A stretch of DNA of 64,000 nt from a virus (IMGVR_UViG_3300035660_000003:22261-86260), one strand, 5' to 3'; shown: positions 1 through 64,000, counted from the first letter of the stretch. The notes: generated by a model not told the origin, from the letters alone. Translations and numbers: made by a program.

Positions 1-373
1 AAAAATTAGAGAAGAATTGGAAGCATTGGTTGATAAGATAGTTGAAGATGCAATTGCTCTATGTCCAAAAGATACTGGTGCATTAGCAAGTTCAATCCAA
101 AAGGGAGAAGGTGGAACGTTAACGGCTGGTGAACCAAATACAATTATAGATATTATTATTAGTGCTGGAGACCCTTCAATCGTAAATCCAAAAACTGGAA
201 TATCGACAGATGAATATGTTAATTATGTTCATGATGGACATGCGTTTAAAGGTGGAAAAGGAATGTATCTTGGCGTGCCATTTCTAGTTGAAGCCATAAT
301 GTTACATGAAGATGAGATAGAAGAACTTATTGATAGAGCACTTCAAGAATTAATGAGGAGAGGCGGAGATTAA
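1..373 (+). CDS. hypothetical protein, 5'-truncated by window edge
   Basis: ORF 17-373 stays open in frame back to nt 2; first gene of plus-strand block; SD-like GGAGAGGCGGAG before next gene. Confidence 0.6.
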   Translation, partial: KIREELEALVDKIVEDAIALCPKDTGALASSIQKGEGGTLTAGEPNTIIDIIISAGDPSIVNPKTGISTDEYVNYVHDGHAFKGGKGMYLGVPFLVEAIMLHEDEIEELIDRALQELMRRGGD

Positions 374-1285
374 ATGCCAGCGTTGGGTTTAAGAACTATT
401 TGGATTGCTTTGAGAGCAGTAAATTATACAGATTTTGCATTTCAAAAAACCATTATAAATTTGAATAATTTGATGAAGGCAGAAGAAGCCGCAACTAAAG
501 CAACTATTCAACATGCTAAATATGCGGCTATGGCTGGAATGATGTGGATGTCATTAGGTGTTATGTTAGGTCAAGCAGGTATGGAAATGGCTAGAACCAC
601 AACCACATTAAAACCTTTTGTTAATGTTGTAGATAGTTTATTTAAAACTATGGAAAAAAGTGAAGCACTTAGAACATTCGTTTCAATTCTTCTTCTAGCT
701 GTTAGTGCTCTTACAATTTTCGGCGGTGCGGCTATGATGGTTAAAGCTATTCAGGATATTGCTTGGTTGCCAAGTGTTCATAGAATGATAGTGGCACATC
801 AGGCTTTGGCAGGAGCATTAGGAGCATGTGCCGCTGGATTCATGATATTTTTTGTATTAAAAGATGTTCTAGGACCAATTCCAGCGGCTTTATTTGCTGT
901 AGCTGCGGCAATGGCTATCCTTGTCGTCCAAATGTGGATGGCGGCTGGTGCTATGTCAGTATTAACATGGGGTTTAGCGGCAGTAGCAGGCGGAGCGGCT
1001 TTAGCAGGAGCAATAGCTGTTGCGGCTGGTGCAGGTAAATATCAAATGGGAACTAGAAGTGCTGGAGCAACTGGTTTGGCATTCGTCCATAAACATGAAG
1101 TGATTTATAATCCAACAACCAATAGACCGACTCAAGTAGGAAATGACTTGAATAGAGGAGCGGGCGAAACTAATTTCTATGAAATGCCAGTCACAATTGA
1201 AACGGTTAATACTAAGGCAGATATTGAAGATTTGGATAAGAAAATGAGTGAAGCATGGCGTAGAAGAATGCGACGGAGACGGTGA
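374..1285 (+). CDS. Gly/Ala-rich multi-pass hydrophobic protein (virion-associated or membrane protein)
   Basis: 303 aa, long hydrophobic A/G/M-rich segments; ATG follows stop of upstream gene. Confidence 0.7.
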   Translation: MPALGLRTIWIALRAVNYTDFAFQKTIINLNNLMKAEEAATKATIQHAKYAAMAGMMWMSLGVMLGQAGMEMARTTTTLKPFVNVVDSLFKTMEKSEALRTFVSILLLAVSALTIFGGAAMMVKAIQDIAWLPSVHRMIVAHQALAGALGACAAGFMIFFVLKDVLGPIPAALFAVAAAMAILVVQMWMAAGAMSVLTWGLAAVAGGAALAGAIAVAAGAGKYQMGTRSAGATGLAFVHKHEVIYNPTTNRPTQVGNDLNRGAGETNFYEMPVTIETVNTKADIEDLDKKMSEAWRRRMRRRR

Positions 1286-1290
1286 TTTAA

Positions 1291-4200
1291 ATGACTGTCA
1301 ACAGAGTTTGGACTATTGAAATTGACGGAGATTCTAAAAAATACAAAACGATTAATTTTGACCGAGTGCTTGAAATAGATGCTCCGCCAACTTTTAATGC
1401 TAAGGTTGCATATGATGAAACAATAAACTTTTGGGACCCAGTTGAAATTAAACGTGATGGAACGATTGAATTTAAAGGATATGTGGAAGGTATCGAGATT
1501 GATTGGGGAAGTCAAGACCGATATTTAAATATTTCTGGTCGTGATGTTTCAGTTATTCTTTGGAAAAAATATGGAGAAGGATTCACCGAAATGGATGAAA
1601 CATTGGGTGGATTCTTTGGAAAAGTTAGTGCCGTTGAACTTTTACAATTCTTAATTAGATGTCCTCAGTCAGACCCAGTTTCAACCTATCCAAATAATAA
1701 GGCTGGATGGGGTATTGATATTTCAAGAATTACCAATGTATCAGCATATAGAACATCGATAGGAGCACCAGAATGGACAATTTTAAGAAAGAAAGGTTTG
1801 GGATGGAGAAATAGTGGAACTCCATTTGGTGAAGACATAAATTTAGTCAGTTCCAATGTAACAGAGGAATGGCAAGAGATTGGCGATACTGGAATAGATT
1901 GTTTAACTGGAATAAATGACGGCAAATACATTACGTCTGGAACTGCTGATGCAATTAGTGAATGGGAGATGGAAAATCTTCCCGCAGAGGCAACAAGCAT
2001 TTCTAATCCGAGATTACAACTTTATTGGGCAACTGATTGGACATATTGGTGGTGGATTCAAGCCGAGTTTGATTGTTATATTTGGATTCAATCACTTAAT
2101 ACTTGGCAATGGTTATTCCATCAAACTGGAAGAGACCTCGGATGGACATATCTGGAATACGATTTATCATCTGTCATTACCACAATAGCAGACCTTAATG
2201 CGGCTAAAATAAAATTTATAAATCGCTCTACAACTCTAAAATCAAAAATAGACTATTGTGCAATAGCTGTAACATATGTGACTTCTGGCACACAAAACAC
2301 CGATGATTATTTTGAAATTGATTTTACGGAACTTGAAAATATTTGTGGAATTTATTTTGAGAGTAGAAATGACGATGAGAGTTTTCCGATAAACTATAAA
2401 ATTGTAACAGTCGGTTCTGACCTAGAAGACTTCATCGAATACACGGAAGTTGACCCTAACACTCACATCAGTAAAACCGCCAATCATATAGATTTTGACG
2501 CTTATAATGATGAAGATGCATATTTATATTATGATTTTGGAGCAAATCATTTTGGAGATTTTAAACAAGAAATTACTTTTAAATGTGTAACCGACCCAGT
2601 TCCAGAGCCACACGTGGGTTATCCAGAAATGTTTGGAGTAATATTGGGATTTTGGGCATTAACTAATGATTTAGATGACCTACTTGCATTAGAATTTGGA
2701 ATTACTTCACCTGCTCCAGTAACTTTTCCACATCTTTCATTGAGTGTATGGAGAGACCCATCTGATATAATAAATGGTGGAGCACCAACCTTCAGATTAC
2801 ATGAAACATATGGTGATGCGAGTGCTCAATCAGATTATAGTCCTGAATTCGATGAAGGAAAAACTTACAAATTTGAAATAATTAGAGTGGGAACGTCTAT
2901 AACTGTTTCGATTAGTGAAGACGGCATTTATTTTGATACATTATCATTGACAATGGGTCAAGATAATGATTTTCGATATTTAATGGCATGTGTTACAGCT
3001 AATACGGGAGAAATAACACATTGCGATGTTGATATAGATAATTTAATTTTTACAACAGAAACCACAATTGTAAGTGAAGTAACTAATAACACTTTTAGAG
3101 ATATTATTCATAGTTGGCAACCACAAACATTGGATAATTTAAAGATTAAAATTACTTCGGCAGATGCCACTCATGGTTGGGCTATCTCGCAAATTTATGT
3201 TTATTATGCTCCAGTCTTGAAATATCGAGTTTATCTGGATGGATTGACTGCACCAGCATTGCCACCGCCATATTTAGGTGGTCCATATATAAAATCAATT
3301 TGGTCTGTAGCAACAACTAAAAGAGCAAGAGCAAGCAATGTAACTACTATTACTACGGCATCCGTTCATGGATTACTTGTTGGAGATGGTGTGAAAATAG
3401 TTGGTTTGGGCGGGACTGGTTATAATGGAACTTGGACTGTGGCATCAGTTCCGACTATTACGACATTCACTTATGCCAATACTGGCAGTGATGAAGCAGA
3501 AACATCCGATACTGGTGGAACGGTTACTGATTATTATGCAACGTCAATAGGACCATTAAACATTGCAATGGAAAGACTGATTGACAGCATTAACTCAATT
3601 GTATCTAAATGTCACAATACTCATAACCCATATAAATGGTGGATGGCATACGATACTGACAACACATTTCGCTTTAAAGCTCGTAGAGGAAGCGATAAGT
3701 CAGGAACTATTTCGTTTGTGAAGGGAACTAATCTTGGTGGAGTGACCAGAACCAAACATGTAGAATCAACGGTTCAGAGAATTAAAATTATAGGCAGAGG
3801 AGAAGGACAACGCCAAGAGAAAGTTTCATCGGATTGGCAAGAAGACGAAGATGCGATGGATGAAATTAGGGGATTTTATGAAGATGTAGAAACTCAGAAA
3901 GTTCAAGCGAATAAAGATTTGACGGATTTGATGGCGTTAATTAAACTGAAAGAAAGTGCTTCCATTGAAGACCAATCAACGATAAATGTGAATAAAGATA
4001 CATGTGACTCTATGGCTTATGATGTTGGTGATGATGTTACAATTACTGATTCGTTGACTGGATTAAGTGGTGCTAAAACAATATATAATATTACGAAAGA
4101 CATAGATGAAAACGGTGAACAAATAACATTAGTTGTTGGAAAGGCTTGGAAAACTCAAGAAGATGAATGGGCTGATATATATAGACGGTTGAAAGAATTA

Positions 4201-4989
4201 GGAATTGTCGGAACGGTTGCAAATGATTGGAGTGGTGAAGGAACTAACGAGAGTAAAGTTGATGCAACGAAGGTTAGCGATACTTGGGAACAATCAGCAA
4301 GTCATGAGGATGTTGAGATTGGCGGTGATAAAACTGACCCGCAATGGTATAAAAATCCAGACCCCGCCAATAATATTGAAATCACAGGTGATAAGATGGG
4401 TCTTTACGGTCCTGATTCGGGTAGCGGAGTTCAATCATATGAAATTGAAATGAGATGGGATAAGAAAGTTTCAACGGCATTTCCCGATGGACTTACTGTA
4501 GAATTTAATATATCATTGACTAGAGAACCAAAACTCATCTGCGAAGGATATTGTTATCAGGTAGAAAGTGGAGATACAAAATATTGGAAAGAAGGAGATT
4601 ATGTAGTTTTCGGTCTCTATAATCTTCAAACTGACATTGGATTCTTATTTAAAATAGTTAAGGGGGCGAGTGCCTTCACAGTTTATGCAAGATATAAGAG
4701 ACAAGGCATATGGATAGATAGTCCAATTAGAACTATAACTTCAAACAGAAAATACCGTTTCGAAATGTATTATAACAAAACGTCACAGGCATTCTACTGG
4801 AATGTTTATGATATAGAAAATGAACAAGAATCCGACCCAGTTAGTTATGTAATCATCAAGCCAGATAATGTCACAGTATTAAAACCACTATATGCAAAAA
4901 TAGTAGCAGACCACAATGATACCACAACATTATGGGCTAGGTTCTACATATTCAGACTTAAAACAGAATGGTCGAGGTATGAATATTAA
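1291..4989 (+). CDS. large 1232-aa structural/surface-like protein
   Basis: uninterrupted 3.7-kb ORF; GGTGAT SD 8 nt upstream of ATG; Thr/Ser/Gly/Asn-rich beta-like composition. Confidence 0.8.
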   Translation: MTVNRVWTIEIDGDSKKYKTINFDRVLEIDAPPTFNAKVAYDETINFWDPVEIKRDGTIEFKGYVEGIEIDWGSQDRYLNISGRDVSVILWKKYGEGFTEMDETLGGFFGKVSAVELLQFLIRCPQSDPVSTYPNNKAGWGIDISRITNVSAYRTSIGAPEWTILRKKGLGWRNSGTPFGEDINLVSSNVTEEWQEIGDTGIDCLTGINDGKYITSGTADAISEWEMENLPAEATSISNPRLQLYWATDWTYWWWIQAEFDCYIWIQSLNTWQWLFHQTGRDLGWTYLEYDLSSVITTIADLNAAKIKFINRSTTLKSKIDYCAIAVTYVTSGTQNTDDYFEIDFTELENICGIYFESRNDDESFPINYKIVTVGSDLEDFIEYTEVDPNTHISKTANHIDFDAYNDEDAYLYYDFGANHFGDFKQEITFKCVTDPVPEPHVGYPEMFGVILGFWALTNDLDDLLALEFGITSPAPVTFPHLSLSVWRDPSDIINGGAPTFRLHETYGDASAQSDYSPEFDEGKTYKFEIIRVGTSITVSISEDGIYFDTLSLTMGQDNDFRYLMACVTANTGEITHCDVDIDNLIFTTETTIVSEVTNNTFRDIIHSWQPQTLDNLKIKITSADATHGWAISQIYVYYAPVLKYRVYLDGLTAPALPPPYLGGPYIKSIWSVATTKRARASNVTTITTASVHGLLVGDGVKIVGLGGTGYNGTWTVASVPTITTFTYANTGSDEAETSDTGGTVTDYYATSIGPLNIAMERLIDSINSIVSKCHNTHNPYKWWMAYDTDNTFRFKARRGSDKSGTISFVKGTNLGGVTRTKHVESTVQRIKIIGRGEGQRQEKVSSDWQEDEDAMDEIRGFYEDVETQKVQANKDLTDLMALIKLKESASIEDQSTINVNKDTCDSMAYDVGDDVTITDSLTGLSGAKTIYNITKDIDENGEQITLVVGKAWKTQEDEWADIYRRLKELGIVGTVANDWSGEGTNESKVDATKVSDTWEQSASHEDVEIGGDKTDPQWYKNPDPANNIEITGDKMGLYGPDSGSGVQSYEIEMRWDKKVSTAFPDGLTVEFNISLTREPKLICEGYCYQVESGDTKYWKEGDYVVFGLYNLQTDIGFLFKIVKGASAFTVYARYKRQGIWIDSPIRTITSNRKYRFEMYYNKTSQAFYWNVYDIENEQESDPVSYVIIKPDNVTVLKPLYAKIVADHNDTTTLWARFYIFRLKTEWSRYEY

Positions 4990-6344
4990 TGACTGACTGG
5001 TTGACTGGTTTCCAGTATAGGAAATCACATTTAATTCTGGGAGCTTACAAAGGATTTGCAGATTTTCCGATATGTATTAAAATTTATTATGGAACTGGAA
5101 CTGATGGAACAGAGAAGGTTGACCATTTAACAGACTATTGGGGAGATTATGATACTTGGGCTGGTAAAGTCTATTGTTCTTCTCATTGTAAAACAGACTT
5201 TAGTGACCTTCGATTCACGGATAATGATGGCACTACCAAACTCAATTATTGGATACAAGAGAAAGTGGATGGAGACTATGCTATAGTATGGATTAAGGTA
5301 ACTGACGACCTTTCAACGGATACTACAATCTTTGTTTACTATGGAAATGAATCTGCTTCATCTGAAAGTGATGGCGATGGAGTCTTTCTTTTATTCGATG
5401 ACTTTGATGATGGAATATTTGATACAGATAAATGGATTGTTAGTGGAAGTTATACTGAATCTGGGGGACTTCTCACCCTCAACTCAGGTGCATATATCCA
5501 AAGTAAATCGACATGGTTCAAAGAAGTTATAGTCTTTATGAAAGCCAAATTCTCACAAGCAAATGGATTTATTGGTCTCTGTAAAACAACTGGTGGAACT
5601 GATGATGCGGCATTCTTTAGAGGGGAAAGTTCAACAATCAAGTCCAGAGTTCAACGAGATAGTGGTTATGAGACTGGAACTGTTGGAGCATATCAAGGTA
5701 ACTTCTGGAAGTTTGCACTCAAATGGTTAAGTGAATATCCAGAAACTCATAACTCGTATAATTCAGTTCAATTCTTTGTGGATAGTGTTGGAAAACGATG
5801 GCACATAAATAATAGTCCAAACGAACTTATTCCAGTAACTAATAATGCCATAGGACTGGATTCACTTATCTTTGATTGGATAGTAGTTAGGAAGGTAGCA
5901 CCTGCTGGAGAAGAACCAGTTCATTCTTCTTGGGGAGCAGAAGAAGAGAAGCATACAACGATAACGATTGGAACTTTAGAGTGTAATGTGATTTCATGGT
6001 CAGAAGGACAAAGTTGCGACCCTGCAATAAGACAAATTCCATTAAACTCTGACGGTGAATTTGTTGATACTGGAACGTTTGTAATAGACAACAGACAACT
6101 CACGATTACTATTCGTCTTACAGATGCTCAGAAAGATACTTTGAATAATATGTTTAATGCGAATGCTACTGTAACTATTATAGCAAAGACTGAATCTGAG
6201 CAAAATTATCCTCGTTGGAAATATACTGTTTGGCTTTCAAGAATTTTAAAGGAATATAGATATAGTAAAGAAGGTTCAGATGAAAGAGAATGGGAAGTTG
6301 AACTTGAATTTTACTGTTCAAGTTTTAGTTATGAGGTGGCGTAA
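4989..6344 (+). CDS. 451-aa structural-like protein
   Basis: ATGA stop/start overlap with upstream gene; same composition as neighbours. Confidence 0.75.
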   Translation: MTDWLTGFQYRKSHLILGAYKGFADFPICIKIYYGTGTDGTEKVDHLTDYWGDYDTWAGKVYCSSHCKTDFSDLRFTDNDGTTKLNYWIQEKVDGDYAIVWIKVTDDLSTDTTIFVYYGNESASSESDGDGVFLLFDDFDDGIFDTDKWIVSGSYTESGGLLTLNSGAYIQSKSTWFKEVIVFMKAKFSQANGFIGLCKTTGGTDDAAFFRGESSTIKSRVQRDSGYETGTVGAYQGNFWKFALKWLSEYPETHNSYNSVQFFVDSVGKRWHINNSPNELIPVTNNAIGLDSLIFDWIVVRKVAPAGEEPVHSSWGAEEEKHTTITIGTLECNVISWSEGQSCDPAIRQIPLNSDGEFVDTGTFVIDNRQLTITIRLTDAQKDTLNNMFNANATVTIIAKTESEQNYPRWKYTVWLSRILKEYRYSKEGSDEREWEVELEFYCSSFSYEVA

Positions 6345-6692: not shown

Positions 6693-6762
6693 TAATTTAA
6701 AGTAATTATCCATAAAAGGACAGCTATTTATCTAATTTAACAAAAATTGTTTTATAGTATAG

Positions 6763-6785
6763 AAAAGTTTAAATAGTTTAAATAC
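6763..6785 (+). promoter_or_regulatory. tandem TATA boxes (GTTTAAATAG / GTTTAAATAC), archaeal-type promoter
   Basis: 15-35 nt upstream of ATG 6799; matches window consensus. Confidence 0.5.
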
Positions 6786-6798
6786 ATTAATTATTCAT

Positions 6799-56461: not shown

Positions 56462-56488
56462 GTATTACAATTCACAATGAAACCTCGT

Positions 56489-56504: not shown

Positions 56505-56543
56505 TCTTTTTGGTTTAGGACTCTGGAGATTTCTTACAGACAT

Positions 56544-57202: not shown

Positions 57203-58079
57203 GTTTTTTCACCATCCTCTCTAAGTAATCCTGATAGTATTGATATAATTTTTTCTTGGGATTGGCAAATAGATGTTGTTTACATGCTTCACTAACATAT
57301 TGAGCGATTTTTGGCATGTCATCTTTTGACTGACCAGTTAATCCCGAATCGGCTTCAACCTTCGATATTGCCCCATAAACTTCATTGTCTGGCATAGGTG
57401 GATAAATTGCTTCGCCTCTAGCAATTTTTCTTTTCTCTGGTTCTGGAACGTCGAGTTTAACTTTTGCTTGAATGAGACCGCCATTAAACTCATCCCATTC
57501 AGCAAATCTTTCTGGCACTTTATAAGCCTTAATCACCATTCCCTCAATTTTCACAGCATCACAGTGTTCTAAGACGTGATTCTTGAATTTGAGCAGGTCT
57601 TTCATGCTTCGATGACGAGTTTCAGCGAACAGTTTCACGCAGGGGATGTTGTGGTGGTATGCGTGCTGGTGGACGTTCACATAGGGCAAAAATTTCGCCG
57701 AATTTTTATCATAGATGTCGAACACATACAGAATATTTCGCTCATAATTTTCAATTCCCGTCACAGACCTTCCTTTTCGACAGGCTTCAACATAAATTAT
57801 AAATTGCGGATTTTCCTTTAATAATTCAATAATTTTAGGATAATCTTCGCATTTTTTAACTAGAGTTTGTAAATCAATTGAAGCGGTTTCAAGATTTCTA
57901 CTGGATATTCTGATTTTTGATTTTTTATCAAGCCAGAGGGCTATACAAGAACCGTCACGTTTATATGTCCAAAAAAGTTTTTGTCCAAGTAGAATTCTGG
58001 GTGAGGGCTTCATCGAAATTAAAAGTGGTATGTGTGGGTATCGTTTAAAACCAATTTTTGCTTCAGATTTTCTTACCAT
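57186..58079 (-). CDS. ATP-dependent RNA ligase-like nucleotidyltransferase (Rnl-type)
   Basis: motif I YKRDGSCIALW, III FIIYVEAC, IV YVFDIYD, V IEGMVIKAYK. Confidence 0.55.
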   Translation of the reverse strand: MVRKSEAKIGFKRYPHIPLLISMKPSPRILLGQKLFWTYKRDGSCIALWLDKKSKIRISSRNLETASIDLQTLVKKCEDYPKIIELLKENPQFIIYVEACRKGRSVTGIENYERNILYVFDIYDKNSAKFLPYVNVHQHAYHHNIPCVKLFAETRHRSMKDLLKFKNHVLEHCDAVKIEGMVIKAYKVPERFAEWDEFNGGLIQAKVKLDVPEPEKRKIARGEAIYPPMPDNEVYGAISKVEADSGLTGQSKDDMPKIAQYVSEACKQHLFANPKKKLYQYYQDYLERMVKKHANKT

Positions 58080-58695
58080 CTCTGTCCCTCTTCAATAACC
58101 AAAACGCAAAATCAACGACTGAATATACATTTATATCTGTTGGTAAACTTCTATATTCCCAGCCCCATGGTTTAATTTCATATTCTCCTACAATGCGTTT
58201 AGCTAAAACTATAATTCGATTGAACTTTGCATCCATTGCCATAATTATTTTAATGAGTGGCAATTGAACACGTAAGCCATCAATGGTATGTCTCGAAAAA
58301 TGAACGTGTAATCCAGCAGTTCCATAATCGCCGTCAAGTCCAGTTGCATGAGACTTTGCAACGCCAGCATAAATATTCGCAGTTAAATCTGGGAGATTAC
58401 TATATTGATATTTTTGTCTAAGATACTCGACCCATTCTTGGTCAAGTTTCGCCCTATGTAAACATTCCAACTCTAATTTGTATTCATCGGCTTTTGCTTG
58501 ATTAATTCTATATAATTCCGCCAAATCTTGCATTAATGATTCTAATGTGGTCTGCGGAGTAGTTCTTAATTCAACCAAAAAACCAAATTCGTCATATGGA
58601 AACCCATAAAGCATTGGTTCTACAAATCTTCCAGTTACTTTATCTCTTAGAAAATATTCACGTTCAATACCTATTTTATCGATTACTTTATTCAT
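58063..58695 (-). CDS. hypothetical protein (RNA-ligase neighbour)
   Basis: 210-aa ORF, overlaps ligase start. Confidence 0.55.
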   Translation of the reverse strand: MNKVIDKIGIEREYFLRDKVTGRFVEPMLYGFPYDEFGFLVELRTTPQTTLESLMQDLAELYRINQAKADEYKLELECLHRAKLDQEWVEYLRQKYQYSNLPDLTANIYAGVAKSHATGLDGDYGTAGLHVHFSRHTIDGLRVQLPLIKIIMAMDAKFNRIIVLAKRIVGEYEIKPWGWEYRSLPTDINVYSVVDFAFWLLKRDRDGKKI

Positions 58696-59047
58696 AGTAT
58701 TCCTTGAACTCCTTCAACATTTCTTGTTGCCAATGATTTTTGAGTCTTTCAACGCCCAATTTTATGACTTCGTTCACGTCAACATCATAAAATATACATA
58801 GGAGAAACATTTGACAGAACGCATCTGAAATGTGAATCTTGGCTTCGGCGAAATAACCCAACTTATCCGTTTGGTCTGAAGTTCGCACATATTTAATCAT
58901 TGCATTGATAAAATCTCTATTACCGAATTGAGCATAAGCAATCAGACTTTGCCACACCTTCTCGAAAAACTTGGCTCTTTTATCTGGCGGCGGCATTAAT
59001 GCTCTAGCTACTTTCTGTATTTCTTCTTCAGGAATCTCAATGTTCAT
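58688..59047 (-). CDS. hypothetical protein
   Basis: 119 aa; promoter 59083-59106. Confidence 0.55.
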   Translation of the reverse strand: MNIEIPEEEIQKVARALMPPPDKRAKFFEKVWQSLIAYAQFGNRDFINAMIKYVRTSDQTDKLGYFAEAKIHISDAFCQMFLLCIFYDVDVNEVIKLGVERLKNHWQQEMLKEFKEYYE

Positions 59048-59082
59048 TAATTTAACACCTAAGAAAAATATATCGGTAAGAC

Positions 59083-59106
59083 TATTTAAAGATTGCGGTT
59101 TACCGA
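59083..59106 (-). promoter_or_regulatory. consensus BRE/TATA promoter
   Basis: ctatttaaagattgcggtttaccg. Confidence 0.55.
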
Positions 59107-59268
59107 ATGGTGACTATGAGTGGTAAAAATTGAACTGTGATTCTTCCAGTTCCTTTACAAAGAATACATAATTTAAGATTTTCATCTATACATTCACCTT
59201 TGCATAGAGGACATATTTGATATTCGAAATTGAAATCCATCATATTCTCCGTGGAAAGAAAGGGGGAT

Positions 59269-60141
59269 TTACTTGTTTTCTTCTCCTCGCTTTACCAATT
59301 TTCCGCCTTTTGGAATTTCTACTGGCATGATGAGTTTCTTCTCTTCCTCTAACATCTTTGCTTTTCTCATTTCTGCACATTTTGTGCTTGTGTATGCAGA
59401 GTCGTATATGAATTGTAGAAATTCGTCATCTAGGAATACATAGATATTTGTTATTGGTATCATGAATCCCATCCAAGTTATTATGTCCACGCCGAAACCC
59501 AGTTGTATTGCAGTTATTCTTGCTGTAATACCTATGTATTCATAAGTATCTGCCAAGAAGACTGCTCCGCCTGAGTTTCCGAATATTGAATTTGCCGTGC
59601 TCATCCAGTATTCTTTGTTCTCAATCATATCATGTTTTGCAACTAAATTTCCAAGAGTGAATATTGGTTCATGCCCAAGTGAGCATCCACATGTGACTAA
59701 TGGTCTGCCCAGTTTTATTTCATCTTCCTCAGCTTTCGGATAAAGTTTTGCAACATGTTTGAATTCATCTTCACATCTGACCTTTAGAACGGCAACATCA
59801 AAATTCTTATCCCATGCCACAATTTCAGCCTGTAAAGTAGTGCTTCCAACGCAACGACTGAGTTTCTCATACTTGAAGATTTCAACCTGAACCAGTTGCC
59901 TATCTTCAACGGTTAAGTTTCTCTGAGCTATACTCGACCATTGTGTGACAAATTGTATGGCATCCTCAACAACGTGCCAACATGTTATAACATAGCTTTC
60001 AAAAATTTCTGGATTTTCTGGAGTTGGTTTAGAATAGACAATGAGACCACTGCCGCCAGCTTTCTCGGTCCTTACCCTGACGACGGGATACATGACCTTG
60101 CGATGGATTTCCTCAATTTTTGTTTGAGTCAAGTCAACCAT
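59269..60141 (-). CDS. S1/HtrA-like trypsin-fold serine protease
   Basis: His box ITCWHVV, Ser box GNSGGAVF; promoter 60177-60197. Confidence 0.65.
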   Translation of the reverse strand: MVDLTQTKIEEIHRKVMYPVVRVRTEKAGGSGLIVYSKPTPENPEIFESYVITCWHVVEDAIQFVTQWSSIAQRNLTVEDRQLVQVEIFKYEKLSRCVGSTTLQAEIVAWDKNFDVAVLKVRCEDEFKHVAKLYPKAEEDEIKLGRPLVTCGCSLGHEPIFTLGNLVAKHDMIENKEYWMSTANSIFGNSGGAVFLADTYEYIGITARITAIQLGFGVDIITWMGFMIPITNIYVFLDDEFLQFIYDSAYTSTKCAEMRKAKMLEEEKKLIMPVEIPKGGKLVKRGEENK

Positions 60142-60176
60142 TCAATTCACCTTTAATTAGAATTAAGCCCTTCAAG

Positions 60177-60197
60177 TATTTAAGGTTTACGGTCACT
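60177..60197 (-). promoter_or_regulatory. consensus BRE/TATA promoter of protease gene
   Basis: gtatttaaggtttacggtcac. Confidence 0.55.
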
Positions 60198-60678
60198 TAT
60201 GAAAGCCGTAAATGAAGGCTATAATTTTACCGACCTTACTATTGTTATTTACATAGGAATCACAAGTGAAAAGTGGTAATTCATCTTTGCTACCCATGTC
60301 AATCAATTTGATTTCACACCTTTCGCATTCTCCATCTTGCTTACCTTCATTCCATATACAAGTTTTATTTTCGCATAGAACATTCGTTTCGAAATCCGAA
60401 TCATCATTGTCATCATCATCATCGGGGTTTTCGGGTTTATCTGGTTCTTCATCATCATCGTCTTTCTTATATTCATCTGGCACTTCATCTGGATATTTGT
60501 CATCATAAGTATCAATCATTATTGCAAAATGATAAACACAAAGATTTCTCTTGACCAACTCATAGCCGTAAGCCGTTTCCTTTCTTTCGAGAATTGTAAT
60601 AATTATTGGACGGTTCTTACCACACTCATCACAGATGGGTGTTCCTACAACATATGGTTTTGGTTTATCATCTGGCAC
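60193..60678 (-). CDS. acidic (poly-D/E) Cys-containing protein
   Basis: 161 aa with DDDDEEPDKPENPDDDDDNDD. Confidence 0.55.
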   Translation of the reverse strand: MPDDKPKPYVVGTPICDECGKNRPIIITILERKETAYGYELVKRNLCVYHFAIMIDTYDDKYPDEVPDEYKKDDDDEEPDKPENPDDDDDNDDSDFETNVLCENKTCIWNEGKQDGECERCEIKLIDMGSKDELPLFTCDSYVNNNSKVGKIIAFIYGFHK

Positions 60679-60705
60679 AATTATCCCTAATTGTATTAGG
60701 CGATT

Positions 60706-60725
60706 GTTTTATTTAAGTCTTTCGG
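60706..60725 (-). promoter_or_regulatory. TATA element
   Basis: gttttatttaagtctttcgg. Confidence 0.4.
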
Positions 60726-61180
60726 CTTTTTAAAGGTTTGGCAGGATTTCCGACCCAAGTTTCATTCGCAGGCACATTTTTGGTAACTACTGCACCACAA
60801 CCAATCATGGCATTTTCGCCTATTGTTACACCACATCTTATCGTAGCATTAGCTCCTATGCTTGCCCCTCTTTTAACCATAGTTGGAACAACATTCCATT
60901 TGTCAATGGCGATTGGATATTTGTCATTAGTAAAAACTACGTGAGGTCCAACGAAAACCTCATCTTCGATTGTAATTCCACTAGGTATGAACACGCCACA
61001 CTCAATTTTACACCTTGAACCTATTTTAACTCCTTTACCAATTTCGGTAAACGAACCTATTATGCAATTCTCACCGATTTCACATTCATAAAGATTACAA
61101 TAATGCCAAACCTTAGTATTCTTGCCAACCTTGACGTTTTTAGCGATGATTCCTTCGCCTTTCATCCATATGAGTCTCAT
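60713..61180 (-). CDS. hexapeptide-repeat (LbH) acetyltransferase
   Basis: [LIV]G..xxI hexapeptide repeats. Confidence 0.8.
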   Translation of the reverse strand: MRLIWMKGEGIIAKNVKVGKNTKVWHYCNLYECEIGENCIIGSFTEIGKGVKIGSRCKIECGVFIPSGITIEDEVFVGPHVVFTNDKYPIAIDKWNVVPTMVKRGASIGANATIRCGVTIGENAMIGCGAVVTKNVPANETWVGNPAKPLKSRKT

Positions 61181-62058
61181 TGGAATGCCTTCTTATATGA
61201 TTTCTTCAATGCTTCTTTCAAACTTGTTTTGGGTTGCCAATCAAGTATTTGTTTCGCCTTTTCAATTGATATATCTTCTTTCATTACATCGCCCTCTCTT
61301 GCTGGAATATATTTTACTCGCATGTTCTTAGCAGTTCCATTAACAATCTCGGCACACATCTCCGCCATTTCATAGATTGTATAAGATTTTCTTCCTACAA
61401 GATTGAAAATTTGGTTTTCGGCTTTAAGGGCTTTATAACAACCTTCTACTAAGTCTTCAACATAAATCCAGTTCCGACATTGACTGCCGTTTCCAGTTAT
61501 AGTGAATGGCTCATTATTGTGAGCCTGATTAAGAAATACCCACGTTGCAAGAGCAGAACGCATCTCTGGACCTACTGTCGTTCCAAATCTTAGAATCACC
61601 CATCGTGAAAGCAATTTTATAATTTCTTCGCCAGCAAGTTTTGTAACGCCATATAAATCCATTGGATGCGTCGGTCCATCTTCAGTTGATGGATGTTGAG
61701 GAGTATCGCCATATACACAGGCTGTTGATGCAAATATCATTTTAATGTTATATCGCCTACACGCTTCAGCAACATTAAACGTGCCATAAAGATTCACGGA
61801 GAATGCCTTATCTTTATATGCTCTGCAATCATCCACGTTAGCCATAGCCGCAAGATGATAACAAACATCCATTCCTTCCCAAAATTTTGCTTCTTTAAGT
61901 TTTGGATTAGTAATATCTGCTTCAATATAATCAATATCGATTTTTGGCGGACAGGTATCTAAACTTGTTACCTTATGACCAGCCGATAATAGTCGTCTAG
62001 CCAATGATGTTCCGATGAATCCTGAACCACCCGTAATCAGAATATTTAGTTTCAACAA
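61177..62058 (-). CDS. NAD-dependent sugar epimerase/dehydratase (SDR)
   Basis: ILITGGSGFIG Rossmann motif, 293 aa. Confidence 0.85.
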   Translation of the reverse strand: MLKLNILITGGSGFIGTSLARRLLSAGHKVTSLDTCPPKIDIDYIEADITNPKLKEAKFWEGMDVCYHLAAMANVDDCRAYKDKAFSVNLYGTFNVAEACRRYNIKMIFASTACVYGDTPQHPSTEDGPTHPMDLYGVTKLAGEEIIKLLSRWVILRFGTTVGPEMRSALATWVFLNQAHNNEPFTITGNGSQCRNWIYVEDLVEGCYKALKAENQIFNLVGRKSYTIYEMAEMCAEIVNGTAKNMRVKYIPAREGDVMKEDISIEKAKQILDWQPKTSLKEALKKSYKKAFQ

Positions 62059-62065
62059 TTTTTAT

Positions 62066-62914
62066 TCACCAAGAGACATACATCCCATCCTTGTTGTAAT
62101 ATTTGAATCTCATTCCATATCTTCTCAATTCGTTTTTGAATTTTTCAGTTAATTCGTTTACTCCCCCATCAATTCGTTTATCACCCAAATCGAACAATGT
62201 GCCGTCCACAAATACTTTATCTTTTACTTGAATTATCTTTTTTCGCTTCTCTTCTCTATCTAAAATGTCATTTTTGAAATGGTTAATAAACTGTTGAATT
62301 AATTCTTGGAATTCCAAATCAGAATACTTCCTTGGATAAACATTTTCTTTAATTACTTTTGCTGGCATTCCAACAGCTAAACATCCAGACGGCAAACTTT
62401 TGGTTACTACTGCTCCAGCACCAACAACAACATTGTCCTCTATTACAACATTTGGCATTATAATAGCTTTTGGACACCAAACATTATTTCCAATAGTTAC
62501 TGAACCAAACTCTATTGGAAATCCATCAAACCAATTCAAATAAGCACCGTGAGTATAAATCTTGGTTTCTTGTCCAAGACCAACTTCATTGCCAATTTTG
62601 ACTGAACGTGCTGTATTTATGAAACCGAAATCGCCAAGATGAACGAAATCTCCAATTTCCAGACTACTCAATTTTTCAAAACTTGACCCGCCACCAATCA
62701 TACAGTAACGTCCACTCCAAAACTCTTTTCCAATCTTTATACATCTTCCTTCCATAATAAAGTTGTCTCCTATAATACTTCTATCTCCTATTTCCAGAGA
62801 TTCTGAAACGTTGAAAACCACGTTTTCACCAATCATCACGTTGTCTCCCAATGTTATCTTGCCGTTATCTAGTATTTTCAGATTTCCTATTTTACATTCT
62901 TTTCCAATAATCAT
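62066..62914 (-). CDS. hexapeptide-repeat acetyltransferase
   Basis: LbH repeats, 282 aa. Confidence 0.75.
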   Translation of the reverse strand: MIIGKECKIGNLKILDNGKITLGDNVMIGENVVFNVSESLEIGDRSIIGDNFIMEGRCIKIGKEFWSGRYCMIGGGSSFEKLSSLEIGDFVHLGDFGFINTARSVKIGNEVGLGQETKIYTHGAYLNWFDGFPIEFGSVTIGNNVWCPKAIIMPNVVIEDNVVVGAGAVVTKSLPSGCLAVGMPAKVIKENVYPRKYSDLEFQELIQQFINHFKNDILDREEKRKKIIQVKDKVFVDGTLFDLGDKRIDGGVNELTEKFKNELRRYGMRFKYYNKDGMYVSW

Positions 62915-62915
62915 T

Positions 62916-63533
62916 TTACAATCGTCCCCACATTAACTCAAATGCCTCAGCCCACATTGTTTTTGCTTGCGTTCCCCGCATAACCATTTGTGCCTTTAAC
63001 CTTTCTACGGAAAAGAAATATGGTCTCCCAATCTTTTGTGACTTGTAAAGGTCTATAACTTTCAACTTTGTTGTCATATCCTCTTTTTGTAGAATTACAA
63101 AAAAGTTCGGATGAAACTCTGATGAAACGCTTCTGATAACTTCGCAACCTAAGATTGTGGACGTGTCCCTAAAAATTGTCATAACACATTCGGCAACGAT
63201 TTTATGGTCTTGATGAAAATCGTGAATTGACGGACATAGAACTAGATTTGGATTTAATCTTTCTCTAATCTGATAGAGAATGTCTCTTATTTGTTGTTTA
63301 TGATTCTCCAGATAATCATCACTAGGCATTAATCCCTCAAAACACAGCGTTATTCCAAGATGTTCACATACTACATGGTGGTCTTCAAGATGTCCAACGT
63401 TTTTTGGGTCTGAAGTGCATGGACAAAAATACATTGAGTAAACTTCATGACCTTCACGTTTCAGTCTTGCAATTGTTCCGCCACATGAAACCTCACAGTC
63501 GTCCGTATGGGCATCAACAATTAGAACACGCAT
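62916..63533 (-). CDS. PIG-L/LmbE-family N-acetylglucosaminyl deacetylase-like
   Basis: LIVDAHTDDCEVSCGGT. Confidence 0.7.
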   Translation of the reverse strand: MRVLIVDAHTDDCEVSCGGTIARLKREGHEVYSMYFCPCTSDPKNVGHLEDHHVVCEHLGITLCFEGLMPSDDYLENHKQQIRDILYQIRERLNPNLVLCPSIHDFHQDHKIVAECVMTIFRDTSTILGCEVIRSVSSEFHPNFFVILQKEDMTTKLKVIDLYKSQKIGRPYFFSVERLKAQMVMRGTQAKTMWAEAFELMWGRL

Positions 63534-63652
63534 TTATCATCATTCCTCTTCATAATCAAACCGCCATTTATTCCTATTACTTGACCAGTTATATATCCAG
63601 CTAGGTAATAAAGTTTTCGGTTTTGGTTTTTTATATAAGTAATAACTTGCTC

Positions 63653-64000
63653 TCATTTTTGCTTTACCTTCTTTATGATTTTAGCTGGAATTCCAACAGC
63701 TATACTATATGGCGGAATACTTTTTTGAACTAAACTGAATGCTCCTATTATGGAATGATGACCTATTTTGATTGATTTATTATTGTTTGGAATTATTTTT
63801 GCAGATGAACCGATGAAAACGTGGTCGCCAATCGTAATGGGAGCAACGATTTTGTCTCCAATTTCCACACATCTAAGATGGGTGCTATGGTCTAAAATCA
63901 TAACCATATCAGAAATATCGCACCATTTTCCAATTTTTATTGGAGCATTCTGTCCTTGAATTTCAACCCAACTTCCTACCCATGTTTCTTCACCTATAGT
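63653..64000 (-). CDS. hexapeptide-repeat acetyltransferase, N-terminus beyond window
   Basis: frame stays open past ORF 63653-63907 to the window end. Confidence 0.7.
   Translation of the reverse strand, partial: TIGEETWVGSWVEIQGQNAPIKIGKWCDISDMVMILDHSTHLRCVEIGDKIVAPITIGDHVFIGSSAKIIPNNNKSIKIGHHSIIGAFSLVQKSIPPYSIAVGIPAKIIKKVKQK

What the first reader, a model, noticed from the sequence alone, without database searches (positions are those of the whole stretch)
1..64000. Expression architecture points to an archaeal host; extreme one-strand coding
The consensus tATTTAAActTTGCGGtt (minus-sense AACCGCAAAGTTTAAATA, i.e. BRE followed by a TTTAAATA TATA box) recurs more than 25 times, 20-45 nt upstream of first-gene ATGs. 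First genes are often leaderless, internal genes use GGTGAT/GAGGTG SD with ATGA overlaps, and these fit the 16S 3' end ..GAUCACCUCC. About 110 of the ~120 genes after 7.8 kb are on the minus strand, and the first 7.2 kb are all plus. Large archaeal viruses, Borg-like elements and megaplasmids show this replichore-like polarity.
Basis: partly seen in the sequence, partly recalled or inferred. Interest (0 to 1): 0.5.

Follow-up and report, generated by a model that had tools for sequence, protein, structure and literature searches.

The report
Archaeal tailed virus with canonical promoters
The window is 64 kb of a roughly 112-kb genome of an uncultivated head-tailed virus of an archaeon. Its genes are driven by about 40 textbook archaeal BRE/TATA promoters and nearly all point the same way, so the architecture is real but of a known kind, in a virus lineage absent from the reference collections searched.

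Summary
A BRE+TATA motif (AACCGnAArnTTTAAATA) occurs 32 times at >=12 bits against 2.75 expected; 28 of these are on the minus strand. Start codons lie 30-38 nt downstream. The motif recurs on the coding strand of related contigs. It matches, base for base, the extended BRE (A-C-C-G, A at -34) described for Methanocaldococcus. Sigma-70-like sites are not enriched. Of 116 genes after 7.8 kb, 113 are on the minus strand, and the first six genes are plus. GGTGA-type Shine-Dalgarno sites and 24 four-base overlaps couple the internal genes.

Two parts of the reading fail. The first genes are short-leadered (about 7-15 nt, inferred), not leaderless. The polarity is not replichore-like: the plus block is a 12-kb packaging/tail module with minus-strand genes on both sides.

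The element is a tailed virus, not a Borg or plasmid. A large terminase subunit lies 2.3-4 kb upstream of the window on the same contig. A neck/tail-completion gene runs into the window start, and a relative has a major capsid protein. Archaeal-type genes support an archaeal host, but its lineage is unresolved.

By-products: a 16-bp palindrome present 31 times, 34 small genes sharing a KVKVILI C-terminus that carries the next gene's ribosome-binding site, orphan promoters with candidate ncRNAs, and a viral uL16.

The parts
17..7230 (+). Plus-strand virion module, six genes: the 3' part of a neck/tail-completion gene, a 303-aa Gly/Ala-rich protein, a 1232-aa tail/virion protein, a 451-aa DUF2341 protein and two small ORFs.
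   Evidence: ORFs. phrog_5 'tail completion or Neck1' at 4.7e-12 for L005:8631-9083, which ends at window 373. phrog_5838 at 4.4e-7 and phrog_538 at 1.4e-4 for the 1232-aa protein. DUF2341 at 1.2e-22. On the same contig the block starts about 4.5 kb upstream of the window, and the large terminase lies 2.3-4 kb upstream.
7820..64000 (-). Co-directional block of 113 minus-strand genes, interrupted by only 3 plus-strand ORFs. It continues at least 7.8 kb past the window end.
   Evidence: Gene model. The extension is L006, with 0 mismatches over an 11,085-nt overlap. GC skew is negative throughout.
60710..60727 (-). Class I BRE/TATA promoter (19.7 bits); start codon 31 nt downstream.
60177..60194 (-). 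Class I promoter (22.5 bits); ATG at 35 nt, with SD.
59083..59100 (-). Class I promoter (22.2 bits); ATG at 35 nt, with SD; heads a 5-gene unit.
54988..55005 (-). Class I promoter (18.6 bits); ATG at 33 nt.
54449..54466 (-). Class I promoter (22.3 bits); ATG at 38 nt, with SD; unit includes the Topo VI-A-like gene.
51428..51445 (-). Class I promoter (21.4 bits) followed by a structured leader of at least 93 nt, then an 11-gene unit.
46716..46733 (-). Class I promoter (18.7 bits); ATG at 35 nt, with SD.
46035..46052 (-). Class I promoter (22.6 bits) with no ORF downstream (orphan).
45677..45694 (-). Class I promoter (16.6 bits, TTTATATA); ATG at 37 nt (LAGLIDADG gene).
45150..45167 (-). Class I promoter (19.6 bits), orphan.
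43733..43750 (-). Class I promoter (15.0 bits); ATG at 35 nt, with SD.
40982..40999 (-). Class I promoter (19.5 bits); ATG at 32 nt, with SD.
39480..39497 (-). Class I promoter (24.6 bits); ATG at 32 nt, with SD.
38600..38617 (-). Class I promoter (20.3 bits), in tandem 53 nt upstream of the next promoter.
38547..38564 (-). Class I promoter (22.8 bits); ATG at 31 nt, with SD (HNH gene).
38008..38025 (-). Class I promoter (16.3 bits), inside the 3' end of the preceding gene; GTG at 36 nt; heads an 8-gene unit.
35476..35493 (-). Class I promoter (23.8 bits), orphan.
35321..35338 (-). Class I promoter (21.4 bits); start codon at 32 or 59 nt.
34697..34714 (-). Class I promoter (25.4 bits, the best hit), orphan.
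29951..29968 (-). Class I-like site (16.5 bits), inside a gene; function doubtful.
28508..28525 (-). Class I promoter (18.0 bits); ATG at 36 nt; heads a 6-gene unit that includes the DNA ligase.
24062..24079 (-). Class I-like site (14.3 bits), inside a gene; doubtful.
22936..22953 (-). Class I promoter (19.7 bits); ATG at 30 nt.
15306..15323 (-). Class I promoter (24.1 bits), orphan, inside a 1.4-kb non-coding, 30% GC region.
14443..14460 (-). Weak class I site (13.4 bits); ATG at 56 nt; heads the MoxR/vWA unit.
8318..8335 (-). Class I promoter (19.8 bits); ATG at 48 nt, with SD.
7798..7815 (-). Class I promoter (24.1 bits), orphan; last promoter of the minus block.
6758..6775 (+). Class I promoter on the plus strand (16.3 bits); ATG at 32 nt, with SD.
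20420..20437 (+). Class I promoter on the plus strand (15.2 bits), for the plus-strand HNH-like ORF 20459-20944.
20171..56431 (-). Eleven class II promoters with TATA variant [TC]TTATAAG. 8-mers at 56424-56431, 52579-52586, 42156-42163, 34063-34070, 32476-32483, 31496-31503, 29547-29554, 25641-25648, 23250-23257, 22080-22087 and 20171-20178.
   Evidence: Each has an ORF start 30-41 nt downstream. The 8-mer occurs 12 times on the minus strand and 7 on the plus strand; 10 of the minus sites and 2 of the plus sites are intergenic. Seven of the eleven have the 16-bp palindrome 8-90 nt upstream.
17327..50507 (-). Thirty-four gene junctions of one type. The upstream ORF ends K-[VI]-[KR]-V-x-L-[IVY], encoded as AAR RTN AAG GTG ATN YTN RTW TGA. 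This stretch carries the SD (AAGGTGAT) and the ATGA/TTGA overlap for the next gene.
   Evidence: 34 minus-strand ORFs have this ending and 0 plus-strand ORFs do. Third codon positions are free at three codons, but GTG is fixed in 30 of 34. The stop is TGA in 31 of 34, and the junction types are listed. Nine of the proteins form a zinc-ribbon paralogue family.
8392..56504 (.). Thirty-one copies (20 exact) of the palindrome TTAATCAATTGATTAA, essentially all intergenic and mostly between 8 and 34 kb.
   Evidence: 31 found against 0.39 expected. The palindrome is also present in L005 (7 copies), L009 (7) and L008 (4).
7360..7775 (-). Candidate structured non-coding RNA of about 400 nt, downstream of orphan promoter 7798-7815.
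   Evidence: There is no ORF. MFE is -143.6 kcal/mol, z = -3.7, and 0 of 100 shuffles fold as well. There is no Rfam match. Only the promoter, the 5' end and a 3' segment are conserved in L009.
35338..35452 (-). Candidate small RNA downstream of orphan promoter 35476-35493; ends in a T-run.
   Evidence: z = -2.3, with 4 of 200 shuffles folding as well.

Best explanation
WHAT IT IS. The window is 64 kb of a roughly 112-kb double-stranded DNA genome of an uncultivated head-tailed (Caudoviricetes-type) virus that infects an archaeon.

TRANSCRIPTION. The virus relies on the host transcription machinery. About 40 promoters consist of an extended TFB-recognition element (A-C-C-G-n-A-A-r-n) directly followed by a TATA box (TTTAAATA, or TTTATAAG in a second subset). 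TBP and TFB bind there and recruit the host RNA polymerase, which by inference starts about 23 nt downstream.

TRANSLATION. The first start codon lies 30-38 nt after the TATA box. The leader is therefore only about 7-15 nt and holds a GGTGA-type ribosome-binding site. Each promoter heads a unit of 1-11 genes (mean 3.4). Downstream genes are translated by coupling: a GGTGA/GAGGT site inside the end of the preceding gene, together with 4-nt stop/start overlaps (ATGA or TTGA).

GENE ORIENTATION. At least 64 kb of non-structural genes (replication/repair, many small zinc-ribbon proteins, a glycan-synthesis cluster) are co-directional. A 12-kb packaging/tail module has the opposite orientation and converges on this block at 7.2-7.8 kb.

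SHOWN: motif enrichment, orientation, spacing to start codons, conservation in relatives, SD and overlap statistics, strand bias, and viral hallmark genes on the same contig or in relatives.

INFERRED: transcription start sites, use of host TBP/TFB/RNA polymerase, unit boundaries, and the identity of the host.
For: - Motif enrichment and strand specificity.
- Start codons 30-38 nt downstream in 17 of 20 promoter-gene pairs.
- The same motif on the coding strand of related contigs: L001 11 against 1, L003 14 against 0, L006 6 against 1.
- Position-by-position agreement with the M. jannaschii extended BRE (A, C, C, G at -40..-37 and a conserved A at -34), plus the 23+-2 nt spacing from TATA to TSS: PMC2699501.
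- No excess of sigma-70-like promoters or of hairpin terminators.
- SD-like motif at 47 of 122 starts against 6.1 expected, and 24 four-base overlaps.
- 39 minus-strand promoters, 32 of which head at least one gene.
- Viral identity:
  - TerL at phrog_2 2.9e-19, a Cas4-like nuclease and a Neck1/tail-completion protein on the same contig.
  - The 1232-aa tail protein is 100% identical to a protein on a 112,412-bp contig.
  - Relatives of 96-113 kb carry a major-head-protein homologue (phrog_544 1.5e-8) and PolB.
- Archaeal affinity:
  - uL16/L10e passes the NCBIfam cutoff, and the listed PDB matches (best 60 of 78) all carry archaeal or eukaryotic-type names.
  - A Topo VI-A-like protein.
  - Alba and DUF1512 in relatives.
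Against: - No transcription start site has been mapped, so leader lengths and promoter use are inferred.
- The capsid and portal genes of this particular genome were not seen. About 32 kb of the 112-kb contig was not retrievable, and the capsid hit is in a relative and sits just under Pfam's cutoff (25.4 against 27 bits).
- The host is not identified. There are no tRNA genes, no integration site and no CRISPR evidence, and two scans of GTDB genomes found nothing.
- Only about 70 of the 122 predicted proteins were screened against Pfam. A small virus-encoded transcription factor that uses the motif cannot be excluded.
- Four of the 32 motif hits lie deep inside genes or have no gene downstream on their strand, and are probably chance.
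Confidence: 0.85

Rival explanations
1. The element is a Borg-like extrachromosomal element or an archaeal megaplasmid, and its gene polarity reflects two replichores running from an origin.
For: GC content is low (about 35%). Coding is extremely one-stranded, and the sign of the GC skew switches at about 7.5 kb. Related contigs come from sediment or peat-type metagenomes, although that habitat is from my memory of the JGI sample names.
Against: - Terminase, neck and tail genes are on the same contig, and relatives carry a capsid homologue.
- The contig is 112 kb, not 0.6-1 Mb.
- Tandem direct repeats are few and small, 8 weak arrays in all.
- In the 80.5-kb composite there are two strand switches, with minus-strand genes on both sides of the 12-kb plus block. 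The switch at 7.2-7.8 kb is convergent, not divergent.
Confidence: 0.04
2. The element is a bacteriophage. The TTTAAATA-containing motif would then be an AT-rich repeat or a phage-specific promoter unrelated to TBP/TFB.
For: GGTGA/GAGGT ribosome-binding sites and ATGA overlaps also occur in bacteria. Several cargo genes (hexapeptide transferases, an epimerase, PIG-L, DruA-like proteins) are common in bacteria.
Against: - Every conserved motif position matches the archaeal extended BRE/TATA, and the spacing to the start codon fits.
- Sigma-70-like sites are at the chance level.
- The uL16 is of the archaeal/eukaryal L10e type. There are also Topo VI-A, Alba, DUF1512, a KaiC/RadA-like ATPase and an ATP-dependent ligase.
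- tblastn of the terminase and the Topo-like protein found nothing in 50,697 GenBank phage records.
Confidence: 0.03
3. The motif is a promoter, but its unusually uniform extended sequence is read by a virus-encoded or virus-modified factor (a TFB or TBP paralogue, or an activator). On this reading it marks one temporal gene class, while TTTATAAG promoters with the palindrome mark another.
For: - The two promoter subsets occupy different regions. Class I lies mainly at 34-61 kb. TTTATAAG promoters and 25 of the 31 palindromes lie at 8-34 kb.
- The palindrome sits 8-28 nt upstream of five class II TATA boxes, which is where an archaeal regulator would act.
Against: No TBP, TFB or RNA polymerase homologue appeared among the roughly 70 window proteins screened. 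The motif equals the generic high-affinity host site, so no special factor is needed. There are no expression data.
Confidence: 0.15

Closest known systems
Archaeal BRE/TATA core promoters, as mapped in Methanocaldococcus jannaschii (Zhang, Li & Olsen 2009, PMC2699501) and Thermococcus onnurineus (PMC5316973)
   Same: An 8-bp A/T-rich TATA box lies directly downstream of a purine-rich BRE. The extended BRE prefers A, C, C, G at -40..-37 and has a conserved A at -34. A GGTGA-type SD lies in a short leader; the median 5' UTR in T. onnurineus is 12 nt. The promoters have the same orientation as the genes.
   Different: The TATA box is mostly TTTAAATA (22 of 32 hits) or TTTATAAG, not the methanogen-type TWTATATA. 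The viral set is far more uniform, and closer to the in-vitro-selected optimum, than cellular protein-gene promoters. Inferred leaders are so short that the SD sits at about +1 to +5. No TSS has been mapped here.
[quoted passage not shown]
   Same: Large terminase, neck and tail proteins, and an HK97-type capsid homologue in a relative. Family-B polymerase in a relative. A structural module separate from a large 'enzymatic' arm. Genome size of 70-140 kb.
   Different: There is no tblastn match of the terminase or the Topo-like protein to any GenBank phage or archaeal-virus record, and a relative's PolB is <26% identical to its listed matches (all 223 matches <60%). Only one distant relative (40% identity) was found in IMG/VR. 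The cargo includes uL16, a Topo VI-A-like protein, a glycan cluster of more than 10 genes and a 34-member small-gene set with a common C-terminus.
Borgs of Methanoperedens (PMC9605863)
   Same: Low GC content, long runs of genes on one strand, and a wetland or sediment setting.
   Different: Borgs are 0.6-1 Mb linear elements with long terminal inverted repeats, pervasive perfect tandem repeats and no virion genes (from my knowledge of that paper). Here the contig is 112 kb, tandem repeats are sparse, and terminase, neck and tail genes are present.
Mobile regulatory cassettes between small early genes of T4-type phages (promoter-early stem-loops; recalled from memory, not checked here)
   Same: A short, near-identical regulatory sequence recurs at many junctions between small, fast-evolving genes, and could mediate shuffling.
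   Different: Here the repeated unit lies inside the coding sequence (the last 7 codons). It is constrained at both the peptide level and the SD level, and it is a translational signal, not a transcriptional one.

Membership tests
Archaeal BRE/TATA promoter | 8-bp A/T-rich TATA box with a purine-rich BRE immediately upstream, including a conserved A at -34 and the extended A-C-C-G | tested here: met
   PWM columns compared with PMC2699501. With the TATA box at -31..-24, the viral A, C, C, G fall at -40..-37 and the near-invariant A falls at -34.
Archaeal BRE/TATA promoter | Enriched over chance, oriented with the genes, and placed upstream of start codons | tested here: met
   32 hits against 2.75 expected, with 28 on the coding strand. 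17 of 20 start codons lie 30-38 nt downstream.
Archaeal BRE/TATA promoter | Transcription starts 23+-2 nt downstream of the TATA box; TBP and TFB bind | not testable with these tools
   This needs 5'-end mapping or EMSA.
Archaeal BRE/TATA promoter | Conserved at orthologous or similar positions in related genomes | tested here: met
   Coding strand against opposite strand: L001 11 to 1, L003 14 to 0, L006 6 to 1, L007 4 to 0.
Leaderless first genes | Start codon at the TSS, that is about 21-25 nt after the TATA edge | tested here: not met
   The mode is 30-38 nt. The only codons at 21-23 nt are the GTG inside GGTGA sites, 9-12 nt upstream of an ATG.
Caudoviricetes (tailed dsDNA virus) | Large terminase subunit | tested here: met
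   L005:4676-6373, on the same contig 2.3-4 kb upstream of the window: phrog_2 at 2.9e-19, and four further TerL PHROGs. The overlap with the window has 0 mismatches.
Caudoviricetes (tailed dsDNA virus) | HK97-fold major capsid protein | tested here: inconclusive
   It was not found in the 80.5 kb seen of this genome. In the related 112.8-kb contig, L010:16175-17077 hits phrog_544 'major head protein' at 1.5e-8 and Pfam Phage_capsid_4 at 2e-5 (25.4 bits, cutoff 27).
Caudoviricetes (tailed dsDNA virus) | Portal protein | not tested
   No candidate was identified, and about 32 kb of the contig was not retrievable.
Caudoviricetes (tailed dsDNA virus) | Neck and tail proteins | tested here: met
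   phrog_5 tail completion/Neck1 at 4.7e-12. There are weak minor-tail and virion-protein hits for the 1232-aa protein.
Borg-like element | Size of 0.6-1 Mb, pervasive perfect tandem repeats, no virion genes | tested here: not met
   The contig is 112,412 bp. There are 8 small, imperfect tandem arrays. Terminase, neck and tail genes are present.
Borg-like element | Long inverted terminal repeats; two replichores | tested here: inconclusive
   The termini were not available. The 80.5-kb composite has two strand switches around a 12-kb module, not one.
Replichore-type polarity | Genes diverge from an origin, with a single skew switch there | tested here: not met
   The switch at 7.2-7.8 kb is convergent. 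A second, divergent switch lies 4.6 kb upstream of the window. GC skew follows the coding strand at both switches.

The most novel reading that the evidence does not exclude
The window may represent an undescribed family of roughly 95-113-kb head-tailed viruses of an as yet unidentified, non-extremophilic archaeal lineage. At least 47 relatives carrying the Topo VI-A-like gene exist in metagenomes, and none is in the GenBank phage set. On this reading the expression programme has three unusual layers:
- Near-optimal BRE/TATA promoters, several of which drive non-coding RNAs.
- A conserved 16-bp palindrome regulon.
- An expanded set of 34 small (often zinc-ribbon) proteins that share a C-terminal KVKVILI peptide. 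That peptide doubles as the ribosome-binding site for the next gene and might act as a common targeting or degradation tag.
The genome also carries its own divergent ribosomal protein uL16.
Probability: 0.45. Interest if true: 0.6.

Novelty: new member of a known kind. Interest (0 to 1): 0.38.

Why it matters
Host domain can be read directly from raw sequence here. A near-optimal BRE/TATA motif, short SD-containing leaders and coupled overlaps are enough to call an archaeal virus, even though the hallmark genes tested (terminase and the Topo VI-A-like protein) had no tblastn match in the GenBank phage/archaeal-virus set. Large viruses of non-extremophilic archaea from sediments and peat are poorly sampled. 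This lineage has 96-113-kb contigs and carries a ribosomal protein, a Topo VI-A-like enzyme and a glycan-synthesis cluster, so it would add to that picture. The uniform promoter set, the orphan promoters and the palindrome give concrete, testable handles on how an archaeal virus times its gene expression. The promoter architecture itself is textbook.

Tried and rejected
- MEGABLAST AND TBLASTN AGAINST GENBANK PHAGES. Megablast of window 1-25,000 found nothing. tblastn of the terminase and the Topo-like protein found nothing. PolB of a relative was <26% identical to its listed matches (all 223 matches <60%).\n- IMG/VR. Single-protein scans found no relatives. A scan with an alignment found one 40%-identical relative.\n- GTDB GENOMES. 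Scans with the Topo-like alignment and with a relative's DUF1512 protein found nothing. There is therefore no provirus or binned contig to name a host.\n- tRNA AND Rfam. No hits.\n- SAMPLE ACCESSIONS IN THE LITERATURE. No hits.\n- CLUSTER LOOK-UP. It returned no organism names.\n- FpoO HINT. A weak Pfam hit (22.4 bits) on ORF 16955-17344 suggested Methanosarcinales. I rejected it because the ORF is one of five HNH-like Cys-rich paralogues.\n- CAPSID CANDIDATE. The 334-aa gene upstream of the terminase is a metallophosphoesterase with Mre11-like motifs, not a capsid protein.\n- uL16 AND ALBA AS HOST MARKERS. Both are too divergent from cellular sequences. The best PDB match for uL16 is 64 bits, and Alba lacks the usual motif.\n- PALINDROME AS A HAIRPIN TERMINATOR. 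This is possible, since it is often flanked by an A-run on one side and a T-run on the other. However, exact sequence conservation across 20 copies and across relatives favours a protein-binding site. T-runs are only about 2-fold enriched in intergenic DNA.\n- BORG-TYPE TANDEM REPEATS. Not present.

Full report
1. THE OBSERVATION

Motif. The 18-mer AACCGCAAAGTTTAAATA with up to 3 mismatches occurs 14 times, always on the minus strand, against 0.15 expected. I built a position weight matrix from these hits and iterated it. It finds 28 minus-strand and 4 plus-strand sites at >=12 bits, against 2.75 expected for both strands together in first-order Markov shuffles. The consensus is A-A-C-C-G-n-A-A-r-n-[T/C]-T-T-A-A-A-T-A.

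Second TATA subset. A subset of sites uses the TATA variant [TC]TTATAAG. It occurs 12 times on the minus strand (10 intergenic) and 7 times on the plus strand (2 intergenic). Eleven of the minus-strand sites have an ORF start 30-41 nt downstream. In total there are 39 candidate minus-strand promoters. Thirty-two of them head at least one gene, with a mean of 3.4 genes per unit and a range of 1-11.

Gene model. A simple codon-usage gene model gives 122 genes and 83% coding density. The six genes up to 7230 are all on the plus strand. After 7.8 kb there are 113 minus-strand and 3 plus-strand genes. Two of the three plus-strand exceptions are HNH-like paralogues.

Translation signals. SD-like pentamers (AGGTG, GAGGT, GTGAT and similar) lie at -20..-4 of 47 of the 122 starts, against 6.1+-2.2 at random positions. 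Twenty-four neighbouring gene pairs overlap by 4 nt.

Bacterial signals. Sigma-70-like promoter matches (67 against 70.6+-7.1) and hairpin-plus-T terminators (9 against 11.5+-4.0) are at the chance level.

2. WHAT THE MOTIF IS

The mapped promoters of Methanocaldococcus jannaschii provide the reference (PMC2699501). [quoted passage not shown] Positions -40..-37 prefer A, C, C and G, most clearly in promoters selected in vitro for factor binding. [quoted passage not shown]

If the viral TATA box is placed at -31..-24, the viral A-C-C-G falls exactly on -40..-37 and the near-invariant A falls on -34. The motif is therefore the canonical, near-optimal TFB/TBP binding site.

The motif is also conserved in the family. 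On related contigs fetched through the Topo VI-A-like gene, the same matrix hits the coding strand 11 times against 1 (L001) and 14 times against 0 (L003). On the extension of this genome (L006) the count is 6 against 1.

The TATA box itself is mostly TTTAAATA (22 of 32 hits), not the methanogen-type TWTATATA. It therefore does not identify a host lineage.

3. LEADERS

Of the 20 promoter-gene pairs, 17 have the start codon 30-38 nt after the TATA edge, and 12 have a GGTG/GAGG site in between. With a TSS at about 23 nt, the leaders would be about 7-15 nt, and the SD would begin at about -2 to +5 relative to that inferred start. The only start codons at 21-23 nt are the GTG inside GGTGA itself.

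The pattern resembles SD-using archaea with short leaders: the median 5' UTR in T. onnurineus is 12 nt, and leaderless mRNAs make up about 11-15% in Thermococcus and Methanolobus. It does not resemble leaderless-dominated Sulfolobus or Haloferax, where the share is about 70% (PMC5316973). This is an inference; no TSS has been mapped.

4. WHAT THE ELEMENT IS

Source contig. The 1232-aa protein encoded at 1291-4989 is 100% identical to a protein recorded on a 112,412-bp contig. Two Logan contigs from SRR11721899 extend the window without a single mismatch, by 8.7 kb on the left (L005) and 7.8 kb on the right (L006). Together they give an 80.5-kb composite.

Virion and packaging genes. Upstream of, and running into, the window start lie:
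- a large terminase subunit (phrog_2, 2.9e-19);
- a Cas4-like nuclease;
- a Neck1/tail-completion protein whose 3' end is the window's first ORF.

The plus-strand genes in the window are tail or virion proteins. They give weak PHROG hits and one DUF2341 match.

Relatives. Related contigs of 96-113 kb share this module. One of them also carries a family-B DNA polymerase, a RadA/KaiC-like ATPase, the archaeal family DUF1512 and a 300-aa protein that matches 'major head protein'. That last match is phrog_544 at 1.5e-8 and Pfam Phage_capsid_4 at 25.4 bits against a cutoff of 27.

Conclusion on identity. The element is a head-tailed virus. Borg features are absent: tandem repeats are few and the size is about 112 kb.

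Relation to catalogued viruses:
- The terminase and the Topo-like protein have no tblastn match in 50,697 GenBank phage and archaeal-virus records.
- PolB of a relative is <26% identical to its listed matches there (all 223 matches <60%).
- IMG/VR yielded one 40%-identical relative.
- Two scans of GTDB genomes found nothing.

5. POLARITY

In the composite, genes are minus-strand from -8.7 to -4.7 kb, plus-strand from -4.5 to +7.2 kb, and minus-strand from 7.8 to at least 71.8 kb. The sign of the GC skew follows the coding strand at each switch. The switch inside the window is convergent. The plus block is therefore a 12-kb inverted packaging/tail module inside a minus-strand genome, a module-level arrangement that is common in large phages. 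It is not a pair of replichores. The right-hand extension is a same-strand cluster of glycosyltransferases, an aminotransferase, epimerases and acetyltransferases.

6. HOST

An archaeal host is supported by:
- the promoters;
- uL16 of the L10e type, which scores 126 bits against NCBIfam NF003239 (cutoff 91), and whose listed PDB matches (best 60 of 78) all carry archaeal or eukaryotic-type names;
- a Topo VI-A/Spo11-like protein;
- an ATP-dependent ligase and a KaiC/RadA-like ATPase;
- Alba and DUF1512 in relatives.

The lineage remains open. There are no tRNA genes, no integrase was seen, and uL16 and Alba are too divergent to place. A weak FpoO hit proved to be an HNH-type Cys motif.

7. FURTHER LAYERS OF THE EXPRESSION ARCHITECTURE

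(a) Shared gene junction. Thirty-four minus-strand ORFs, and no plus-strand ORFs, end in K-[VI]-[KR]-V-x-L-[IVY].
- The coding sequence AAR RTN AAG GTG ATN YTN RTW TGA contains the SD for the next gene.
- The stop is TGA in 31 of 34, and it mostly overlaps an ATG or TTG start of the next gene.
- Third codon positions are free at three codons, and Leu uses both CTN and TTR. This indicates selection at the peptide level.
- GTG is fixed in 30 of 34, which indicates selection on the SD.
- Nine of the proteins form a zinc-ribbon paralogue family.
- In an AlphaFold model of moderate confidence (pLDDT 67, from a shallow alignment) the tail is disordered, with pLDDT below 50.
- The tail is present in the closest relative (L009) but was not seen in the sampled parts of more distant relatives.

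(b) Palindrome. TTAATCAATTGATTAA occurs 31 times (20 exact) against 0.39 expected. Essentially all copies are intergenic, and most lie between 8 and 34 kb. Several lie 8-28 nt upstream of class II TATA boxes. The palindrome also occurs in L005, L008 and L009. A binding site for a dimeric regulator is the most likely reading. A hairpin-plus-T terminator is the alternative.

(c) Orphan promoters. Eight of the best-scoring promoters have no ORF downstream. The sequence after promoter 7815 is a 416-nt ORF-free stretch that folds with z = -3.7 and has no Rfam match. Only its ends are conserved in L009. The sequence after promoter 35493 folds with z = -2.3. The other orphan regions do not fold significantly better than shuffled controls.

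8. VERDICT

'Leaderless', 'replichore-like' and 'Borg-like' are not supported. The promoter architecture is textbook. The virus lineage and the by-products listed above are the more interesting part.

Noticed in passing
window 8392-56504 (31 sites, e.g. 15469, 15646, 16043, 16218, 16360, 16696, 20238, 20313, 23286, 23539, 23585, 29563, 32492, 45745, 56446): The perfect 16-bp palindrome TTAATCAATTGATTAA occurs 31 times (20 exact) against 0.39 expected. Essentially all copies are intergenic, often several per gap. It is often flanked by an A-run on one side and a T-run on the other, and several copies lie 8-28 nt upstream of TTTATAAG TATA boxes. It is also present in relatives L005, L008 and L009. 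It is probably an operator for a dimeric regulator. A terminator is the alternative.
   Followed up: partly
window 17327-50507, minus strand (34 ORF ends, e.g. stops at 50507, 50283, 50059, 49074, 48796, 48416, 48153, 33799, 30986, 30729, 29306, 27125, 19736, 19213): Thirty-four small, often zinc-ribbon, proteins share the C-terminus K-V-K-V-I-L-I. Its coding sequence carries the AAGGTGAT ribosome-binding site and the ATGA/TTGA overlap for the next gene. It is constrained both as a peptide and as an SD. In an AlphaFold model the tail is disordered. Its function is unknown; a common tag or degron, a coupling cassette, or a recombination junction are all possible.
   Followed up: partly
window 7360-7775 (-): A top-scoring orphan promoter (7798-7815) is followed by about 416 nt without an ORF and with higher GC than the surroundings. 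The stretch folds at -143.6 kcal/mol (z = -3.7) and has no Rfam match. Only the promoter, the 5' end and a 3' block are conserved in relative L009. It is a candidate large non-coding RNA.
   Followed up: partly
window 34598-34675, 35338-35452, 45060-45126, 45800-46011, 15240-15282 (all -): Further strong promoters (34714, 35493, 45167, 46052, 15323) have no ORF downstream. They are followed by short GC-rich hairpin-containing sequences that end in T-runs. Only the 35.4-kb candidate folds clearly better than shuffles (z = -2.3).
   Followed up: partly
window 51444-52073 (-): The virus encodes a ribosomal protein uL16 (L10e type). It scores 8.6e-20 against Pfam Ribosomal_L16 and 126 bits against NCBIfam NF003239 (cutoff 91), but it is very divergent from every solved ribosome (best 64 bits). 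It is present in a near-identical strain (L004) but was not flagged in relatives L001 or L003.
   Followed up: partly
window 52592-54208 (-): A 538-aa protein has a Topo VI-A/Spo11 Toprim domain, and no B subunit was seen nearby. It has 47 metagenomic homologues, several on 96-113-kb contigs. It may correspond to the 'mini-A' type IIB topoisomerase-like proteins of mobile elements (that name is from memory).
   Followed up: partly
window 47333-48154 and 49392-50060 (-): Two paralogous proteins match the Druantia defence protein DruA (4e-15 and 3.5e-22), which is unexpected in a viral genome.
   Followed up: no
window 60713-64000 (-) and L006:1-8155: A same-strand cluster of more than 10 sugar-modification genes: two NAD-dependent epimerases/dehydratases, a DegT-type aminotransferase, a PIG-L deacetylase, several hexapeptide acyltransferases and large glycosyltransferases. 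This suggests virus-directed glycan synthesis.
   Followed up: no
window 14802-16229: A 1.4-kb non-coding stretch with the lowest GC in the window (about 30%). It contains four copies of the palindrome and one orphan promoter. It could be a replication origin or a control region.
   Followed up: no
window 12625-12683 and 13821-13879: A 59-nt direct repeat (98% identical) lies at the start of two neighbouring genes (11981-12622 and 12941-13828), spanning their 5' flank and SD. Two Logan contigs (SRR11721899_89888 and _3753) end or meet in this region (about 12,650-13,830).
   Followed up: no
window 16955-17344 (+), 20459-20944 (+), 22537-22905, 24183-24746, 28094-28471 (-); 37994-38524 (-); 45184-45639 (-): Five HNH-like Cys-rich paralogues, two of which are the rare plus-strand genes, together with a further HNH_3 gene and a LAGLIDADG gene. 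These are probably homing endonucleases.
   Followed up: no
window 10262-13828 (-): A MoxR-type AAA+ ATPase (AAA_5) and a 556-aa vWA-domain protein lie in the same promoter unit, two genes apart. The arrangement is conserved in relative L009.
   Followed up: no
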